A stretch of DNA of 64,000 nucleotides from a virus (lineage: Duplodnaviria; Heunggongvirae; Uroviricota; Caudoviricetes). A program made the position numbers and the translations under genes. Positions 24,248-34,049 of this stretch are shown here, piece by piece. Positions within the stretch are counted from its first letter, which is position 1, and each line of letters begins with the position of its first letter. Location of the stretch: IMG/VR virus record IMGVR_UViG_2526164662_000021, positions 32,001 to 96,000 of that record; one strand, given 5' to 3'. Below the pieces are notes generated by a model. It searched no databases and had not been told where the DNA came from. It saw nothing but the letters and a program-made list of their open reading frames with translations.

Positions 24248-25444
24248 TCAGTTAGATCTGATAAATTCAATACGGTCAAAAACTGCTTTAGCAAAATCTT
24301 CCGCGGCAATTCGCGCGTTCTTCAATGCATCAGCACTACCAACATACGTTGCCGGGTTAGCTGAAATAACAGTGTCAAAAGACTCGCCGCAACGTTCAAA
24401 ACCGTCAAGGCGAGGGAGGACGACATCGAGCATATCCCCACCGAACACTTCTTTAGCCAGGCTATGGCAATACTTATGATCTGCCTTGTTACTCAACTTG
24501 GACATAAAACCAATGTTAGTCGCAAGCTGGCACTCGCAGCCTTCATCCGAAATGAGTTTCACCAACTCAGGAAGGCGGGCAACGTATTTAAGCGATGAGT
24601 GGAAATCGACAGTTGCTGGCGGCAGAGGTGTAAACAGTATATTGGCCGAGGCCAAAGCATTTTTCAGGAAGGCGTCAAGGTGAGGACCACTATCAACGAG
24701 GATAAAATCATAATCGCTCTTCAGCTTATCAATCACATTTTCTTTCAGGACAGCATGGATGTTCTGACCCGGTAGATGCTCATTGCACAGCTCTCTCCAA
24801 TCGGATGCAATAAAGGCATCGTCAATCGACGCAGGCATAACGTCAACCCCAGGTACAACAGAAGGAACAATAAACTCCTCTAACAGCTCTTCACGGCTTA
24901 CATTCTGCAACATAGCCTGTGCAGATGTTGCGTTTACGATACCAATAGAGTGTTTATGGCTTAAAAACATCGTTGCTGAAGATTGCGGATCAAGGTCAAT
25001 AACCAGAATCCTTAAATCTTCCATCAGAAGATGAGGGTGAGCACGCATTGCATGCGCCAGAGAAACCGTCGATACAGTTTTTGACACACCGCCTTTAAGA
25101 TTGGAGATGAAAATCACATACGCTTCGCTGTAGCGATCCCGGTATTTTGGCACTCCGCGATGTTCATATATGTCAATGATGTTCTGAATTGACATCGCAT
25201 ATTTCATTGAAGAGCCAGCAGGGCGCTTATCGAAAACATAACCCTTTTCTTCCATTTCACTTACAGCATAGTCAACGTTCGCTCGAGTCAGTAGAGGCAA
25301 TTTTGCCAGTGCCGCTTTCGCATAGACCTGGTAAAACTCGTTCGCGTGTAGCTCATCCTTTTGCAACTGTACTTGTTCAGTCAGAACATTGAGCATTCTG
25401 TTTGCTCTTTGAGCAACCTTGTGAAGCTGGCTGGAATCACTCAT
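24248..25444 (-). CDS. parA: Partition ATPase ParA
   Basis: 398-aa ORF (MSDSSQLHKVAQRANRMLNV...); Walker A NLKGGVSKT; N-terminal extension typical of type Ia ParA. Confidence 0.9.
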   Translation of the reverse strand: MSDSSQLHKVAQRANRMLNVLTEQVQLQKDELHANEFYQVYAKAALAKLPLLTRANVDYAVSEMEEKGYVFDKRPAGSSMKYAMSIQNIIDIYEHRGVPKYRDRYSEAYVIFISNLKGGVSKTVSTVSLAHAMRAHPHLLMEDLRILVIDLDPQSSATMFLSHKHSIGIVNATSAQAMLQNVSREELLEEFIVPSVVPGVDVMPASIDDAFIASDWRELCNEHLPGQNIHAVLKENVIDKLKSDYDFILVDSGPHLDAFLKNALASANILFTPLPPATVDFHSSLKYVARLPELVKLISDEGCECQLATNIGFMSKLSNKADHKYCHSLAKEVFGGDMLDVVLPRLDGFERCGESFDTVISANPATYVGSADALKNARIAAEDFAKAVFDRIEFIRSN

Positions 25445-25582
25445 CGAAAGTCATCCTTTATGCTGTATTTTTGAATTTAATTAAAAATGCTGCATAAAAT
25501 AATAATGTATGCGCAGATGCTTGTACATAGCATTCTCTGCATGTTTGATTCATTTTTCACGATTGAGAGTTGCAAGGCGGGC

Positions 25583-25606
25583 ACAAAAAAGCCCCGTTCA
25601 GGGGCA
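25583..25606 (-). terminator. Rho-independent terminator after the T5orf172-like gene
   Basis: Minus strand GCCCC-tgaac-GGGGC followed by TTTTTT. Confidence 0.6.
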
Positions 25607-25612
25607 TCAGTG

Positions 25613-26422
25613 TTATTTGTTAAGAGCTGCGAATAATCGTTCGAAATCGATAGTATATATAGCACGCGTAAGCGCCGGAAGTTCAGCCTCAAAGTACCCG
25701 TGTCGATCGTAAAAGAAGGGACCAAAGAGCGAGGAATGTTGGATTCTACTTCGCCCCAGCCCGGACACACAGTTAAGTCCATTACCGGATAAAAGGCTAA
25801 AAAACTTCTCTGGATTATCGTGGTAAAGCTGGGAATCAATGGTGGCAGTTAACTCTTCCATAGGGAAGCACACCCGCCCAGTCTCCCAGGAATATTTAGT
25901 CCGAAGCGTAAACATCGCTTTCAGCAATTCACATTGAGCGCGGATCGCGTCAGGTTCATAGCCAGATATGGAGACATAAGCCACATCCCTCATTCCTGCG
26001 TCATCTTTGAAAGTCACGATAGAAGTAACATCCAGTTCTTTTTCGAAAGAGCGAGCAGCATCTACTGGACGCTGAAGTAAATCATTCGACTTAATCCGCT
26101 CAAGAATCCCTCCCCACATATCATTTAGGTATTCGATATGAGCCAAAACCTTATCAAGACACTCTCGTGTAAACCATTCAGTATGCCCGCCACCGGCGCT
26201 TTTCTCCCACGGCGCATTCCAGGGGAAAAAGGTTGCGTGTAAAGCCCGCTCAAGATTAACCATTGCCAAACGCGTACCACGATAGACCCGTGAAAGCGCA
26301 AAATCGGGACTCACTTGTAGCCCTTTAAACCGTGCCAATGGACCACATGAAATGCCGATTTTAAAAGTATCTCCGTTCTCCGGCACCAGAACGTAGAGGT
26401 AGTGTTGTTTCTCTTCTTGCAT
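25613..26422 (-). CDS. T5orf172/GIY-YIG-like domain protein (hypothetical)
   Basis: N-terminus YLYVLVPENGDTFKIGIS...LERALHATF...GGHTEWF resembles the T5orf172 (GIY-YIG-like) fold; about 170-aa C-terminal region of unknown function; own terminator. Confidence 0.55.
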   Translation of the reverse strand: MQEEKQHYLYVLVPENGDTFKIGISCGPLARFKGLQVSPDFALSRVYRGTRLAMVNLERALHATFFPWNAPWEKSAGGGHTEWFTRECLDKVLAHIEYLNDMWGGILERIKSNDLLQRPVDAARSFEKELDVTSIVTFKDDAGMRDVAYVSISGYEPDAIRAQCELLKAMFTLRTKYSWETGRVCFPMEELTATIDSQLYHDNPEKFFSLLSGNGLNCVSGLGRSRIQHSSLFGPFFYDRHGYFEAELPALTRAIYTIDFERLFAALNK

Positions 26423-26439
26423 ATCAATACCACTGCTTG

Positions 26440-26720
26440 ATGAGAACCGCGCAAATGTTGACTATGCGCGAAAGTTAATGTGAATAGTTGACTATGCGCG
26501 ATGTGACTACAGTCAAAAGTTGACTGTAGTCGATTTAACTCCACCAAAAATCGACTATGTAAGATATTGTCGGGAGAAACGTTGACTATACGCGATGAAA
26601 TGACCCTAAAAGCCATCTCAATAGCGACTTGCAGAATATTGACGCCAGCAAAAATCCACCAGCGTCAACGAATGTCGCCTATAGTCAACTTCTCGCTATC
26701 GCATATAGTCAATATTATGG
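26440..26720. repeat. Iteron array downstream of repA (incA-like copy-control repeats)
   Basis: About nine copies in both orientations of a core near GTTGACTATGCGCGA / TCGCGTATAGTCAAC (e.g. 26450, 26480, 26512, 26582, 26670, 26695). Confidence 0.7.
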
Positions 26721-27656
26721 ATTGCGCTTATGGATCTGGAAGCCGATTTTCCTGCCGTTTTTTATCTCTGAAAATTTAAGATATTCAATAGCTTCCAAAT
26801 CTTTCATAGCTTTTCTGATAACGCTATTTTGCACGCTAACGGATGATTTGAGATTAAGCCTTGCTCTAAGGCGCTCAATGCTGACAGGTGCCGGGTTGGC
26901 GGGTAGAGCCTCAAAGAATGTATACAGCACCTTGGCCGTCTCTTTGCGCCCGAGCTTATCCAGCATCTTCAGCTTCAGGATTCGCTTATAGTCAACATAG
27001 TAAAGTTCAGATAGCTGTTTCTGCGGCTGGATCTCGATAACATCAAGCTCGGTATTCAGGCTGCTATATGCCAACAAGTTGACGTTAATGTTATTGAGAT
27101 GACCTTTTGCCGCCGGGAAGCGGAATTTGACAACTGTCTGCTGAATGCGTGTCAGAGAGTCATCAATACTTTTACGGAACGCCTTTGAAAGGCGCTTACG
27201 TGGATAGCCGCATCGATCGGCAAACTCGGAGAATGGCAGGGTGATTATGCCGTCATCATCAGGTGCGTAGTCAAACAACGCGGAGGTTATGCCCACCCAC
27301 ACCTTAAAATCAGTATCCATATCCAGGCGTGGACCATGTATTTCAATTCCCTCATAGCCTTCCTGCTCAACAATTTTGAGGCTTGATAGTTCTTCGGTTG
27401 CGTTCGTTGTGTTTGTAGTAACTGACGATCCGCGACGTAGTGCCACATTGGTAGATTTTAAGGTTGGCACAAACACACCTAAGCGCAACAAAGCGATTGG
27501 TTGTATAGTGCTATTGTTATTGGGTTTCAGGCTGTGGATTTCTCCTGTATTTCCTGCAACTTCTTCAACGCTAAGGAAGCCTTTATTTTCTTCCGGCATC
27601 GTGGTTTCTCCATATGTGGCGCGGCCTGGCGTCATCTGGATTGCAGTTATCAACAA
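26715..27656 (-). CDS. repA: Plasmid replication initiator RepA (iteron-binding)
   Basis: ORF flanked by iteron arrays on both sides; motifs PIALLRLGVFVP, GPRLDMDTDFK, YTF; probable start at an internal Met (MPEENKG...). Confidence 0.8.
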   Translation of the reverse strand: MLITAIQMTPGRATYGETTMPEENKGFLSVEEVAGNTGEIHSLKPNNNSTIQPIALLRLGVFVPTLKSTNVALRRGSSVTTNTTNATEELSSLKIVEQEGYEGIEIHGPRLDMDTDFKVWVGITSALFDYAPDDDGIITLPFSEFADRCGYPRKRLSKAFRKSIDDSLTRIQQTVVKFRFPAAKGHLNNINVNLLAYSSLNTELDVIEIQPQKQLSELYYVDYKRILKLKMLDKLGRKETAKVLYTFFEALPANPAPVSIERLRARLNLKSSVSVQNSVIRKAMKDLEAIEYLKFSEIKNGRKIGFQIHKRNP

Positions 27657-27659
27657 CTG

Positions 27660-27890
27660 TGAATAGTCAGGCTCTAAAATCGCGTACAGTCAATGTTTCT
27701 GTCGCGTATAGTCAACAATAAATCGCGTGCAGTCAACAATAAATCGTGCACAGTCAACATAAAATCGCGTATAGTCAATGTTGATCCCATTTCAGGCCAG
27801 AAATGGCGCGGCTTACAGCGATCCGGGATCTTCTTTGGATCTTCCTAGGTTCTCTTTAGGATCTGTTTATTGGATCTATGCTGTGGATAA
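27660..27890. promoter_or_regulatory. Plasmid origin oriR-like: five direct iterons, GATC cluster and DnaA box
   Basis: Five direct repeats ATCGCGTATAGTCAAC-like with ~21-bp period (27675-27780); six GATC sites in heptamer-like repeats (27783-27876); DnaA box TGTGGATAA at 27882-27890. Confidence 0.65.
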
Positions 27891-27933
27891 GTTGAATAAA
27901 CCGGCCAATAAAGCCGGTTGGAAGGAAGCCGTA

Positions 27934-28326
27934 TTATTCTACGCTCTCGATAAGAAGACCATGTTCATAACATTTAAGCTCATCGCCTTCGTACAGGAAT
28001 TGGTATCCAACACCACCATCTTCATGGACATTAGGGAATAACTCATAACTCACTGAAGAGCAAATCACACCAATGCAGCGATCAACTCCTTCTCGTTCTT
28101 CAGTGCAGAAAAAATCCTCTTCGGTAAGAACATGAGTACATTGCTCATCAGCATAGGTCGGAAATACATGCTCAATGCAATCCGGGTGTTTTAAACCAAG
28201 CTGATCGGCAAGCTCGAAAGCACGACGGTATTGTTCAGATCCTGGCTTGCCAACAGTGATTTGCTCAATTTTGTAGATTGAAGTCGCTTTGTTGATAGTT
28301 TGCTTTACTGTTACTTTATCAGACAT
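27934..28326 (-). CDS. Hypothetical protein
   Basis: 130-aa ORF, Cys/His-rich; last gene of a minus-strand cluster. Confidence 0.4.
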   Translation of the reverse strand: MSDKVTVKQTINKATSIYKIEQITVGKPGSEQYRRAFELADQLGLKHPDCIEHVFPTYADEQCTHVLTEEDFFCTEEREGVDRCIGVICSSVSYELFPNVHEDGGVGYQFLYEGDELKCYEHGLLIESVE

Positions 28327-28337
28327 AAAAATCCCTT

Positions 28338-28670
28338 TTAGTTACCGCTGATAGCGCGGTTGTAATCATTAACGTTGCGATTCTTCCTGTTAATCCCCAT
28401 CAGCATCGTTTCTGTATCAAGGATATAGGCTGGCAGATCATCAAAATATTCACTGCTAAACTCTGGCATCCTGCACATAAATGCACTTTTGGGGGCAGGG
28501 TGATTAACCTTTGTCGGCGTCGGCGTTAAATTCGCTGATCGACTCCCGGAGCAACCGCTGAGTGTCAACAGGAATGCGCTGGCGAACACTACCCGACGCA
28601 ACCAGTTGTTTCTGAACTTCAGCTTTTCGTTCCATTTGTCTGTCTGCATACTTCGCTTGTTCTGATTCAT
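28338..28670 (-). CDS. Outer-membrane lipoprotein, o-spanin (Rz1)-like, overlapping the upstream gene in another frame
   Basis: Lipobox LLTLSGC followed by Pro-rich segment (TPTPTKVNHPAP); starts inside the Rz-like gene (28504-28926) in a different frame; start codon uncertain. Confidence 0.4.
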   Translation of the reverse strand: MNQNKRSMQTDKWNEKLKFRNNWLRRVVFASAFLLTLSGCSGSRSANLTPTPTKVNHPAPKSAFMCRMPEFSSEYFDDLPAYILDTETMLMGINRKNRNVNDYNRAISGN

Positions 28671-33679: not shown

Positions 33680-34049
33680 TCGTCTCAATGAATCGTGATT
33701 TATAGAGCGATTTAGCTGTTAGCCGCGACAGGCGCGGCGGTAAGCATGGCTGGGCCTAGTCCTCCCAGACAAACCACCGAGTTGCCAGGTTGACCATGCG
33801 CCTAAGTGGCAACGCCGAAGTGCGTTACGAGCTTCCAGTTTGCCCATCTTCGGGTGGGCGTTTTTTTCAGGGTTTTCGTCATGGTTAGCGACTTTGCGGC
33901 GGTTTAGAAACTGACCATTAAAGTAAATGCAAACGATGATCTGATGATGGTAGCGGCCTAAGAAGCCAGACGCCACGGGGTATGAGTCGTCCCCCGTCAA
34001 AAAATCGACCGCAGAGTGTCCCCGTCTGTGTATTAGGGAACGGGGAGGC

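What the first reader, a model, noticed from the sequence alone, without database searches (positions are those of the whole stretch)
25583..26422. T5orf172/GIY-YIG-like gene with its own terminator between incA iterons and the par promoter
A 269-aa ORF with an N-terminal T5orf172-type motif (YLYVL...KIGIS...ALHATF...HTEWF) and an unassigned ~170-aa C-terminal domain sits between the repA iterons and parA. In the classical P1 maintenance region as I recall it, incA and par are adjacent. The gene is followed by a clean rho-independent terminator (25583-25606), so it looks like an inserted, separately transcribed moron. T5orf172-domain proteins occur as homing-endonuclease-like or defence-associated accessory genes.
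Basis: partly seen in the sequence, partly recalled or inferred. Interest (0 to 1): 0.55.

Follow-up and report, generated by a model that had tools for sequence, protein, structure and literature searches.

The report
Nuclease gene riding the p0111 replicon
A real 269-aa T5orf172/GIY-YIG-type nuclease gene sits between the replication iterons and the partition promoter of this P1-like phage-plasmid, but it belongs to the whole swapped-in "p0111" replication cassette rather than being a separate insertion, and it looks like a selfish homing-endonuclease-like passenger of unknown target.

Summary
ORF 25613-26422(-) encodes 269 aa with an N-terminal T5orf172 domain above Pfam's cutoff and a conserved hairpin+T6 terminator directly after the stop. 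P1 has no such gene.

The "moron inserted into the P1 incA-par interval" reading is only partly right. The whole segment 25547-27795 replaces P1's IncY replicon. It holds the origin iterons, a RepFIB-like repA', incA-like iterons, this ORF and the terminator. This is the known p0111 replicon, and about 400 plasmids carry repA' and the ORF together.

Only three distant full-length relatives exist in billions of proteins. All lie in the same repA-parA slot of P1-like elements, next to three different RepA types, and always inside the exchanged cassette.

The ORF evolves far faster than its neighbours, is under relaxed purifying selection, and is knocked out independently in about 20% of copies. 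It is therefore dispensable.

The model shows a GIY-YIG fold plus a lower-confidence winged-helix C-domain whose best PDB matches are iteron-binding initiators.

Best reading: a homing-endonuclease-like, possibly Odn-like, site-specific nuclease. No defence-system match was found. The gene is already annotated but uncharacterised.

The parts
25613..26422 (-). ORF269: T5orf172/GIY-YIG-family nuclease gene (269 aa, stop included)
   Evidence: ORF list. Pfam T5orf172 E=4.6e-6, above cutoff. Full-length match to PHROG 2876, function unknown, and to phrog_681 'endonuclease' at 5e-9. dN/dS is 0.12-0.4.
26108..26422 (-). N-terminal nuclease domain (aa 1-105); candidate catalytic residues Y10, R31, E82 (K21, G23, E58 also invariant; H62 >=90%)
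25616..26107 (-). C-terminal domain (aa 106-269): no sequence family; predicted winged-helix-type DNA-binding fold with an extended beta-sheet
   Evidence: No Pfam hit. No relatives outside the 4-member family in 1.84 billion representatives. pLDDT is 55-85. Best PDB matches are RctB domains 2-3, Rep WH1 domains, RepE54 and TcpK.
25583..25605 (-). Intrinsic terminator (GCCCC-TGAAC-GGGGC + T6) ending the ORF, or repA'-ORF, transcript just upstream of Ppar
   Evidence: Found by the scan. Invariant in 6 copies. An equivalent hairpin+T-run follows the homologue in L005. It is weak or absent in L003 and L004.
26453..26713 (.). incA-like iteron array between repA' and the ORF: two copies in repA orientation (26677-26689, 26697-26713) and four in the opposite orientation (26457-26469, 26487-26499, 26519-26531, 26581-26593); the last ends 34 bp before the ORF ATG
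26715..27599 (-). repA' (p0111 / RepFIB-like Rep3-family initiator, 294 aa from the ATG used in RCS47)
   Evidence: Pfam Rep3_C and Rep3_N. 42.7% identical to P1 RepA. At least 99% identical in 394 plasmids. Annotated in RCS47.
27682..27779 (-). Five origin iterons at 21-bp spacing (incC equivalent)
25547..27795 (.). The exchanged replicon cassette: the stretch with no P1 homology, flanked by P1-like Ppar/parA (99.2% identity) and by the DnaA-box/GATC part of oriR plus upfA (95%)
   Evidence: blastn of the window against P1. The junction lies ~15 bp upstream of the Ppar -35. The same boundaries separate L003 and L004.
25499..25527 (-). Ppar (P1-type par promoter), immediately downstream of the cassette
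   Evidence: Promoter scan and P1 annotation.

Best explanation
ORF269 is a two-domain, site-specific DNA endonuclease of the T5orf172 branch of the GIY-YIG superfamily. It has an N-terminal catalytic domain and a fast-evolving C-terminal winged-helix-type DNA-binding domain. It lives as a selfish, dispensable passenger at the par-proximal edge of the exchangeable plasmid-replicon cassette of P1-like phage-plasmids.

Shown:
- The domain identity and the conservation of the candidate active-site residues.
- Linkage to the p0111 cassette.
- The same repA-parA slot in every detectable family member, beside three RepA types.
- A position inside the exchanged cassette, at its par-proximal edge, wherever a breakpoint could be mapped.
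- Relaxed purifying selection and recurrent knock-outs.

Inferred:
- It is made at a low level in the plasmid state. Transcription would come by read-through from the RepA-autoregulated repA' promoter, or from a weak promoter overlapped by iterons. The RBS is weak, and the transcript ends at the conserved terminator that insulates Ppar.
- It cuts DNA of related elements that do not carry its own cassette, most likely in or near their replicon region, because the flanks it shares with P1 are essentially identical and would otherwise be self-targets.
- The break either destroys the rival or is repaired from the nuclease-carrying element through the conserved flanks (Ppar/parA on one side, the DnaA-box part of oriR and upfA on the other). 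Repair of that kind would copy the whole cassette, as a homing or marker-exclusion drive does.
For: - Domain: Pfam T5orf172 scores above its cutoff. Y10, K21, G23, R31, E58 and E82 are invariant across 55 relatives.
- Nuclease precedent: T5orf172 proteins are documented nucleases or HEG-like genes. Odn's activity depends on the equivalent Glu (PMC8263062), and HEG signatures are listed in PMC10448857.
- C-domain: it is predicted as winged helix, and its top PDB matches are DNA-binding initiators.
- Architecture: the nearest N-domain relatives are also ~200-340-aa proteins, some with MarR/HTH or Rep3_N C-terminal DNA-binding domains.
- HEG-like population signatures:
  - Presence and absence vary among close relatives at one locus. 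P1 lacks the gene, while L004, whose RepA is 83% identical to P1's, has it.
  - It sits at the edge of the recombination tract in two independent backbone pairs.
  - It is 43% identical between the window and L003, against 84% for RepA and 89% for ParA. The C-domain is only 30% identical.
  - dN/dS is 0.12-0.4, against <=0.03 for repA'.
  - At least four independent knock-outs occur in 44 sampled copies: S112* in pO111_2, stops at codons 68 and 228, and a 1.76-kb insertion. Many further truncated forms exist.
  - The literature reports frequent replicon-type switching among P1-like phage-plasmids (PMC11165635).
- Transcription: the scan found no terminator or promoter consensus between repA' and the ORF, and the terminator after the ORF is conserved.
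Against: - No activity, target site or transcript has been observed.
- No 'empty-site' allele of the p0111 cassette exists among ~400 plasmids. P1's 190-bp spacer shows no remnant of the gene. A homing site therefore cannot be defined, and the linkage could be plain hitch-hiking with a successful replicon.
- The C-domain model has modest confidence (pLDDT 55-85), and its alignment is shallow.
- All common p0111 copies sit beside the same P1-type parAB, so evidence for cassette movement comes from few backbone comparisons.
- Purifying selection in most copies would also fit a function that benefits the host or the element.
Confidence: 0.45

Rival explanations
1. Odn-like origin-directed nuclease. 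The C-terminal domain is a diverged replication-initiator (Rep WH1-type) DNA-binding domain that recognises the iterons or origin of a competing replicon, such as a rival phage-plasmid, plasmid or satellite. The T5orf172 domain then cuts there, enforcing displacement of the competitor without any homing.
For: - The top Foldseek PDB hits of the whole model are iteron-binding initiators: RctB domains 2-3 (E=1.6e-3, prob 0.99), MSBI1.176 Rep WH1 (E=0.034), RepE54 and pPS10 RepA.
- P0018, a relative sharing the N-domain, carries a Pfam Rep3_N WH1 domain at E=8e-7.
- There is a precedent: ICP1 Odn is a T5orf172 domain plus a RepA_N domain and cuts PLE iterons (PMC8263062, PMC10448857).
- The gene is encoded directly beside an iteron array in all four cassettes.
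Against: - The C-domain shows no sequence similarity to any RepA of these elements (hhalign probability 0.15%) or to the Rep3_N domain of P0018 (3.5%).
- The structural scores are marginal and the model region is of modest confidence. Winged helices are very common.
- The window and L003 share the same iteron consensus and 84% RepA identity, yet their C-domains are only 30% identical. The domain therefore does not track its own iterons.
Confidence: 0.2
2. Anti-phage defence or accessory 'moron' nuclease that protects the lysogen against unrelated lytic phages. An example would be recognition of modified or foreign DNA, as with the GIY-YIG enzyme PD-T4-3.
For: - P1-like elements carry defence genes in variable regions (general knowledge; PMC9603915 lists the variable regions).
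- The gene encodes a GIY-YIG-type nuclease.
- Relaxed selection and frequent loss are also typical of defence genes.
Against: - No PADLOC model matches.
- The protein is a single small one with no partner genes.
- Every family member lies strictly in the repA-parA slot and never in known defence hot spots or other genomic contexts.
Confidence: 0.1
3. Replication or partition accessory, or a domesticated DNA-binding regulator in the manner of CapR. The protein would bind near incA or Ppar, or bind RepA itself through a WH1-like interface, and so tune copy number, handcuffing or par expression. Cleavage would be irrelevant or limited to nicking.
For: - The position between the copy-control iterons and Ppar is constant across three replicon types.
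- Co-transcription with repA' is likely.
- A WH/Rep-like fold is predicted.
- PLE CapR is a precedent for a regulator derived from a T5orf172 HEG (PMC10448857).
Against: - The candidate catalytic residues are strictly conserved in all family members.
- The gene carries a nonsense mutation, frameshift or insertion in stably maintained plasmids and in the phage SJ46, so replication and maintenance do not need it.
- It diverges several times faster than RepA or ParA.
Confidence: 0.12
4. Functionless relic: a decaying homing endonuclease gene that merely hitch-hikes with a successful replicon.
For: About 20% of sampled copies are disrupted. There are many truncated database forms. dN/dS approaches 0.9 in the closest pair.
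Against: - Most pairwise dN/dS values are 0.12-0.4.
- The N-domain motifs are invariant across family members that are only 28-43% identical overall.
- 35 of 44 copies are intact.
Confidence: 0.08

Closest known systems
The same gene as already deposited: 'GIY-YIG nuclease family protein' / 'T5orf172 domain-containing protein' of p0111-type P1-like phage-plasmids (RCS47 gp090, JL22 'gp57', SJ46, pO111_2, ~400 PLSDB plasmids)
   Same: 90-99% identical protein in the identical position repA'-iterons-ORF-terminator-Ppar. JL22's authors note an unknown gene accompanying the p0111 repA' (PMC9603915).
   Different: This window carries a rarer allele: only 2 of 401 plasmid records are >=99% identical. 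It has a patch of substitutions in the C-terminal half (16/495 nt, against 1/879 in repA', relative to its closest cassette). No held paper assigns a function.
Free-standing GIY-YIG/T5orf172 homing endonuclease genes of phages (T4 Seg proteins and I-TevI; ICP1 T5orf172 HEGs)
   Same: - Small two-domain protein with an N-terminal GIY-YIG-type nuclease and a C-terminal DNA-binding module.
- Intergenic position next to essential genes.
- Variable presence among relatives.
- Frequent frameshifts and stops.
- Location at boundaries of exchanged DNA (PMC10448857).
   Different: It sits in the plasmid-maintenance region of a temperate phage-plasmid, not among lytic-cycle genes. It occurs as a single copy. 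The C-domain is unrelated in sequence to the known Zn-finger, CapR or AP2 modules. No empty target site is identifiable. Homing is untested.
ICP1 Odn (Gp88), origin-directed nuclease
   Same: It has a T5orf172 nuclease domain: Foldseek hits ICP1 ORF88 and the Glu of the TEWF motif is conserved. It may have an initiator-like DNA-binding domain. It is tied to iteron replicons and replicon-module exchange (PMC8263062).
   Different: - The domain order is reversed, with Odn's DNA-binding domain at the N-terminus.
- Odn's DNA-binding domain is 42% identical to PLE RepA_N, whereas here no sequence similarity to any RepA is detectable.
- Odn is encoded by a lytic phage against a satellite, whereas this gene lies inside the replicon cassette itself.
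SLX1 / UvrC-N / UPF0213 GIY-YIG domains (solved structures)
   Different: The similarity is at fold level only (9-17% identity), and the partners and biology are different.

Membership tests
T5orf172 (PF10544) / GIY-YIG superfamily | Match to the family HMM above the curated threshold | tested here: met
   27.5 bits against a gathering score of 20, E=4.6e-6, residues 8-85. 53 of 55 aligned relatives also match.
T5orf172 (PF10544) / GIY-YIG superfamily | Conserved motif residues (Tyr of 'GIY', Gly of 'YIG', Arg, catalytic Glu) | tested here: met
   Y10, K21, G23, R31, E58 and E82 are invariant; H62, G79, T81, W83 and F84 are >=90% conserved in 55 sequences. They are also invariant in the four full-length family members. 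Equating E82 with the catalytic Glu of Odn/I-TevI is an inference from the motif, not from a structural superposition.
T5orf172 (PF10544) / GIY-YIG superfamily | GIY-YIG alpha/beta fold | tested here: met
T5orf172 (PF10544) / GIY-YIG superfamily | Metal-dependent nuclease activity | not testable with these tools
   This needs purified protein, wild type against E82A.
Free-standing homing endonuclease gene | Nuclease domain plus a separate sequence-specific DNA-binding domain | tested here: inconclusive
Free-standing homing endonuclease gene | Sporadic presence or absence at one locus among close relatives, at borders of exchanged DNA | tested here: met
   Absent in P1 and present in L004, which has an IncY-like RepA 83% identical to P1's. 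The cassette edge lies 36 bp beyond the terminator in the window-P1 comparison, and the same edges separate L003 and L004.
Free-standing homing endonuclease gene | Recurrent degeneration (frameshifts, stops, deletions) | tested here: met
   35 of 44 copies are intact. Disruptions are S112* (x5, one lineage), stops at codons 68 and 228, and a 1.76-kb insertion with a 230-bp deletion; one further copy is cut by a contig end and is uninformative. There is also a frameshift in pATCC10729_02 and many truncated forms.
Free-standing homing endonuclease gene | An otherwise identical HEG-less allele whose junction is the cleavage (homing) site | tested here: not met
   All ~400 p0111 cassettes carry the ORF or remnants of it. 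P1's spacer is unrelated, with no remnant.
Free-standing homing endonuclease gene | Cleavage-dependent unidirectional transfer into the HEG-less allele | not testable with these tools
   This requires co-infection or co-residence crosses.
Odn-like origin-directed nuclease | DNA-binding domain homologous to a replication initiator's DNA-binding domain | tested here: inconclusive
Odn-like origin-directed nuclease | Iteron-dependent cleavage of a target origin | not testable with these tools
   This needs an in-vitro nuclease assay on origin fragments with and without iterons.
Known anti-phage defence systems (PADLOC-DB 2.0) | Match to a defence-protein HMM | tested here: not met
   0 families at E<=1.
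p0111 replicon cassette of P1-like phage-plasmids | Near-identical repA' and iterons replacing the IncY repA/incA/incC of P1 between Ppar and the DnaA-box part of oriR | tested here: met
   One search gives the breakpoints at 25546/25547 and 27795/27796. There are 404 plasmid records at 95-99% identity, including pO111_2. RepA' is >=99% identical in 394 records. See also PMC9603915 and PMC11165635.

The most novel reading that the evidence does not exclude
Each exchangeable replicon cassette of P1-like phage-plasmids carries its own 'replicon-warfare' nuclease. This would be a T5orf172 endonuclease whose rapidly diversifying, Rep-WH1-like C-domain recognises the origin or iteron region of rival cassettes. 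Cleavage would either eliminate the rival or convert it by recombinational repair through the conserved Ppar and oriR-DnaA flanks. If so, plasmid incompatibility type in this family would be driven by a gene-drive-like nuclease and not only by passive iteron titration.
Probability: 0.2. Interest if true: 0.75.

Novelty: new member of a known kind. Interest (0 to 1): 0.45.

Why it matters
The p0111 replicon is one of the two replicon types used to recognise and type P1-like phage-plasmids, which spread ESBL and mcr genes in Enterobacteriaceae. Yet the second gene of that replicon cassette has never been studied.

Suppose the nuclease attacks rival cassettes or drives cassette conversion. That would explain the reported frequent switching of replicon type among otherwise similar P1-like elements. 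It would also add a plasmid-borne counterpart to the phage Odn/HEG paradigm, and it would make replicon competition directly testable with a simple E82A allele.

If the gene is only a decaying passenger, the finding is ordinary annotation clean-up.

Tried and rejected
- PADLOC and NCBIfam scans of the protein gave no hit.
- A Pfam scan of the four C-terminal domains gave no hit.
- A PDB sequence search gave only a marginal GIY-YIG match.
- I tested whether the C-domain is a sequence homologue of the neighbouring or P1 RepA, as in an Odn-style chimera. BLASTP and hhalign were negative. The comparison with the Rep3_N domain of relative P0018 was also negative.
- I looked for a remnant of the ORF in P1's incA-Ppar spacer by blastn-short and tblastn and found none.
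- I looked for a sigma-70 promoter, or a terminator, between repA' and the ORF. The consensus scan found none. By eye, only weak (C/T)ATAGT -10-like hexamers inside the iterons.
- Rfam found nothing credible in 24500-28500.
- I searched the window for paralogues of the nuclease domain and found none.
- The genome-contig scan returned one p0111 copy plus one unrelated weak hit. The phage and plasmid collections contain no P0009-type homologue.
- The afdb50 fold library was unavailable.
- The first AF2 run, on a 3-sequence alignment, was too poor to use (pLDDT 56.9).
- I considered a toxin-antitoxin reading, prompted by a Tox-URI2 hit at E=0.23. I dropped it because there is no partner ORF and the hit is weak.
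Full report
**1. The observation**

The minus strand of 25613-26422 carries an ATG-initiated 269-codon ORF containing the quoted motifs. Pfam T5orf172 matches residues 8-85 above its gathering score (27.5 against 20 bits, E=4.6e-6). MUG113 and Tox-URI2, other members of the GIY-YIG/URI group, score below threshold. The protein matches PHROG 2876 (function unknown) over its full length and the nuclease part of phrog_681 'endonuclease'. It has no NCBIfam or PADLOC match.

Seven bases after the TAA stop lies GCCCC-TGAAC-GGGGC followed by T6, at 25605-25585. Terminator-like patterns are not enriched in the region as a whole. This one, however, is invariant in six independent copies while the next ~40 bp vary.

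**2. What surrounds the gene**

Upstream on the same strand lies a Rep3-family initiator gene at 26715-27599. Five origin iterons at 21-bp spacing lie at 27682-27779. A second iteron array at 26453-26713 lies between repA and the ORF. Its last iteron ends 34 bp before the ORF's ATG. Downstream lie Ppar, parA and parB, which are 99.7-100% identical in protein to P1's.

This RepA is only 42.7% identical to P1 RepA. A blastn of the window against P1 shows homology up to 25546 (99.2%) and again from 27796 (95%). Everything in between, 2.25 kb, replaces 1.49 kb of P1, namely incA, repA and the incC iterons. The DnaA-box/GATC half of oriR is shared.

So the ORF was not inserted into P1's incA-par interval. 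It is one component of a different replicon cassette. That cassette is the known 'p0111' replicon:
- 404 PLSDB plasmids, including pO111_2, and 12 phage records (RCS47, SJ46, JL22, phi456 and others) carry it at 95-99% identity.
- 401 of those plasmids carry the ORF, always at >=90% protein identity.

**3. How wide the family is**

The family is very narrow. A word-indexed search of 5.8 billion proteins and a full HMMER search of 1.84 billion representatives found only three diverged full-length relatives: P0004, P0009 and P0011, at 43%, 28% and 31% identity. The other ~160 hits share just the N-terminal ~100 residues.

All three relatives are encoded between repA and parA of P1-like elements:
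- L003 has a p0111-like RepA (84% identical).
- L004 has an IncY/P1-like RepA (83% identical to P1 RepA).
- L005 has a third RepA type (43-49% identical to either).

The iteron sequences differ accordingly. In all four cassettes the distal iterons are inverted and end 24-34 bp before the ORF's start.

L003 and L004 have 96-98.6% identical backbones, but the block from the origin iterons to the end of the ORF is exchanged. These are the same edges as in the window-P1 comparison. The gene is therefore an old, syntenic resident of the exchangeable cassette and always sits at its par-proximal edge. P1's own 190-bp spacer holds no remnant of it.

**4. Evolutionary behaviour**

Between the window and L003, the ORF is 43% identical (N-domain 64%, C-domain 30%). 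RepA is 84% and ParA 89% identical over the same comparison. Within the p0111 group, dN/dS is 0.12-0.4 for the ORF and <=0.03 for repA'. The ORF is thus constrained, but roughly ten times more loosely than repA'.

The window's allele differs from its nearest cassette (L006) at 16/495 nt in the C-terminal half, against 1/879 nt in repA'. This suggests a recombination patch.

Of 44 sampled p0111 copies, 35 are intact. The rest break down as follows:
- Five share the S112* mutation, the pO111_2 lineage.
- One stops at codon 68.
- One, from SJ46, stops at codon 228.
- One is split by a 1.76-kb insertion with a 230-bp deletion.
- One is cut by a contig end and is uninformative.

pATCC10729_02 has a frameshift near codon 249, and the protein database holds many different truncated forms on long contigs. 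The gene is therefore dispensable for replication and maintenance and is lost repeatedly.

**5. Structure**

With a 55-sequence alignment, AlphaFold2 gives pLDDT >90 for most of residues 10-110 and 55-85 for the C-domain. The residues invariant across the 55 relatives are Y10, K21, G23, R31, E58 and E82, with H62, G79, T81, W83 and F84 at >=90%. This is the T5orf172 version of the GIY-YIG active-site constellation.

The N-domain matches known nucleases:
- Foldseek against viral models gives T5orf172 proteins, CapR-homology proteins, a Hef-like HEG and ICP1 ORF88, which is Odn.

The C-domain has the alpha-beta-alpha-alpha-beta-beta order of a winged helix, followed by two more strands. Its PDB matches are DNA-binding winged-helix proteins, conspicuously iteron-binding initiators:
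- Foldseek's top hits for the whole model are RctB domains 2-3 (E=1.6e-3), MSBI1.176 Rep WH1 (E=0.034), RepE54 and pPS10 RepA.

These scores are marginal. Sequence comparison with the RepAs of these elements is negative. I treat the Rep-like nature of the C-domain as a lead and not as a result.

One supporting detail: P0018, one of the 55 closest N-domain relatives, is a T5orf172 + Pfam Rep3_N (WH1) fusion (E=8e-7). Others carry MarR/HTH domains. Nuclease plus DNA-binding module is therefore the norm in this subfamily.

**6. Expression**

On the ORF's strand the consensus scan finds only Ppar. It finds no promoter and no terminator between repA' and the ORF. The region before the ATG has at best a weak GTGGT Shine-Dalgarno, present in both the window and L003. 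The simplest reading is a repA'-ORF transcript, or a weak promoter overlapped by iterons, ended by the conserved terminator that shields Ppar. This is inference. L003 and L004 lack an obvious terminator.

**7. Mechanism**

T5orf172 proteins are an experimentally supported nuclease class. ICP1 Odn cuts PLE origins in an iteron- and Glu-dependent way (PMC8263062). ICP1's many T5orf172 genes show the population signatures of homing endonuclease genes and sit at borders of exchanged DNA (PMC10448857).

ORF269 shows the same signatures: two-domain architecture, variable presence at one locus, a position at a recombination edge, fast divergence of the putative DNA-binding half, and recurrent knock-outs.

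The flanks it shares with P1 are essentially identical, so any target must lie in the non-shared cassette of rivals or elsewhere. I therefore favour a selfish site-specific nuclease that cuts related elements lacking its cassette, with destruction or cassette conversion as the outcome (confidence 0.45). The reported frequent switching of replicon type among P1-like phage-plasmids (PMC11165635) fits this model but does not prove it.

The rival readings are:
- an Odn-like origin-directed nuclease in the strict sense (0.2);
- anti-phage defence (0.1);
- a replication/partition accessory or domesticated regulator (0.12);
- a decaying relic (0.08).

The main weaknesses of the favoured model are that no empty-site allele exists, that no target is known, and that linkage to a successful replicon could be hitch-hiking.

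**8. Comparison and novelty**

The gene is already in databases as 'GIY-YIG nuclease family protein' or 'T5orf172 domain-containing protein', and it has been noted as an unknown gene in JL22. No paper in the held library assigns it a function.

It is a member of the T5orf172/GIY-YIG family: the HMM, motif and fold tests are all met. It works like a free-standing HEG on several population criteria, but one defining feature, an identifiable HEG-less homing site, was tested and not met. Activity could not be tested.

What this analysis adds:
- the gene belongs to the cassette and is not a P1-specific insertion;
- the family exists only in the repA-parA slot, across three replicon types;
- it is dispensable and evolves fast;
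- its C-domain is probably a winged helix with initiator-like matches.

Verdict: a real, ordinary-to-moderately interesting feature and a new member of a known kind. Interest 0.45.

Noticed in passing
L003:4831-7019 vs L004:4656-6944: Two Logan contigs (ERR2144811, SRR6505940) have 96-98.6% identical P1-like backbones with a non-P1 par type (ParB 67% identical to P1's). Their replicon cassettes have been exchanged wholesale. One has a p0111-like repA with a P0004-type nuclease. The other has an IncY-like repA with a P0009-type nuclease.
   Followed up: partly
window 26984-26996 (inside repA'), 25264-25276 (inside parA), 33789-33801: There are iteron-like 13-mers outside the two arrays, three in total against ~0.7 matches expected by chance for the whole window. 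The one inside repA' (GTTGACTATAAGC, encoding YVDYKR) is also present in L003's repA.
   Followed up: no
L007 (NC_013370.1, pO111_2) 1565-2374: In pO111_2, one of the p0111-type plasmids matched here, the nuclease gene is a pseudogene (S112* nonsense, annotated as two ORFs). SJ46 has a stop at codon 228.
   Followed up: yes
L006-L010 (PLSDB typing lines): MOB-suite, as reported by PLSDB, types these p0111/P1-like plasmids as 'IncHI1B', which looks like a mistyping. Phage phi456 (OR339795) annotates the nuclease ORF as 'terminase small subunit'.
   Followed up: no
P0018 (338 aa, metagenomic representative): A relative of the nuclease domain is fused to a bona fide Pfam Rep3_N (WH1) domain at residues 199-338 (E=8e-7). 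This is an Odn-like architecture built with a Rep3-type rather than a RepA_N-type initiator domain. Its genomic context could not be looked up.
   Followed up: partly
L053:3794-5557: In one IMG/VR p0111 copy the nuclease ORF is interrupted after nt 293 by a 1.76-kb insertion accompanied by a 230-bp deletion. The inserted element was not identified.
   Followed up: no
window 25613-26131: Relative to the otherwise almost identical cassette of NZ_CP104510 (L006), the window's substitutions are concentrated in the C-terminal half of the ORF and the spacer after the terminator. The counts are 16/495 and 4/66 nt, against 1/879 in repA' and 0/292 in the iteron region. This suggests a short recombination patch at the cassette edge.
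   Followed up: partly
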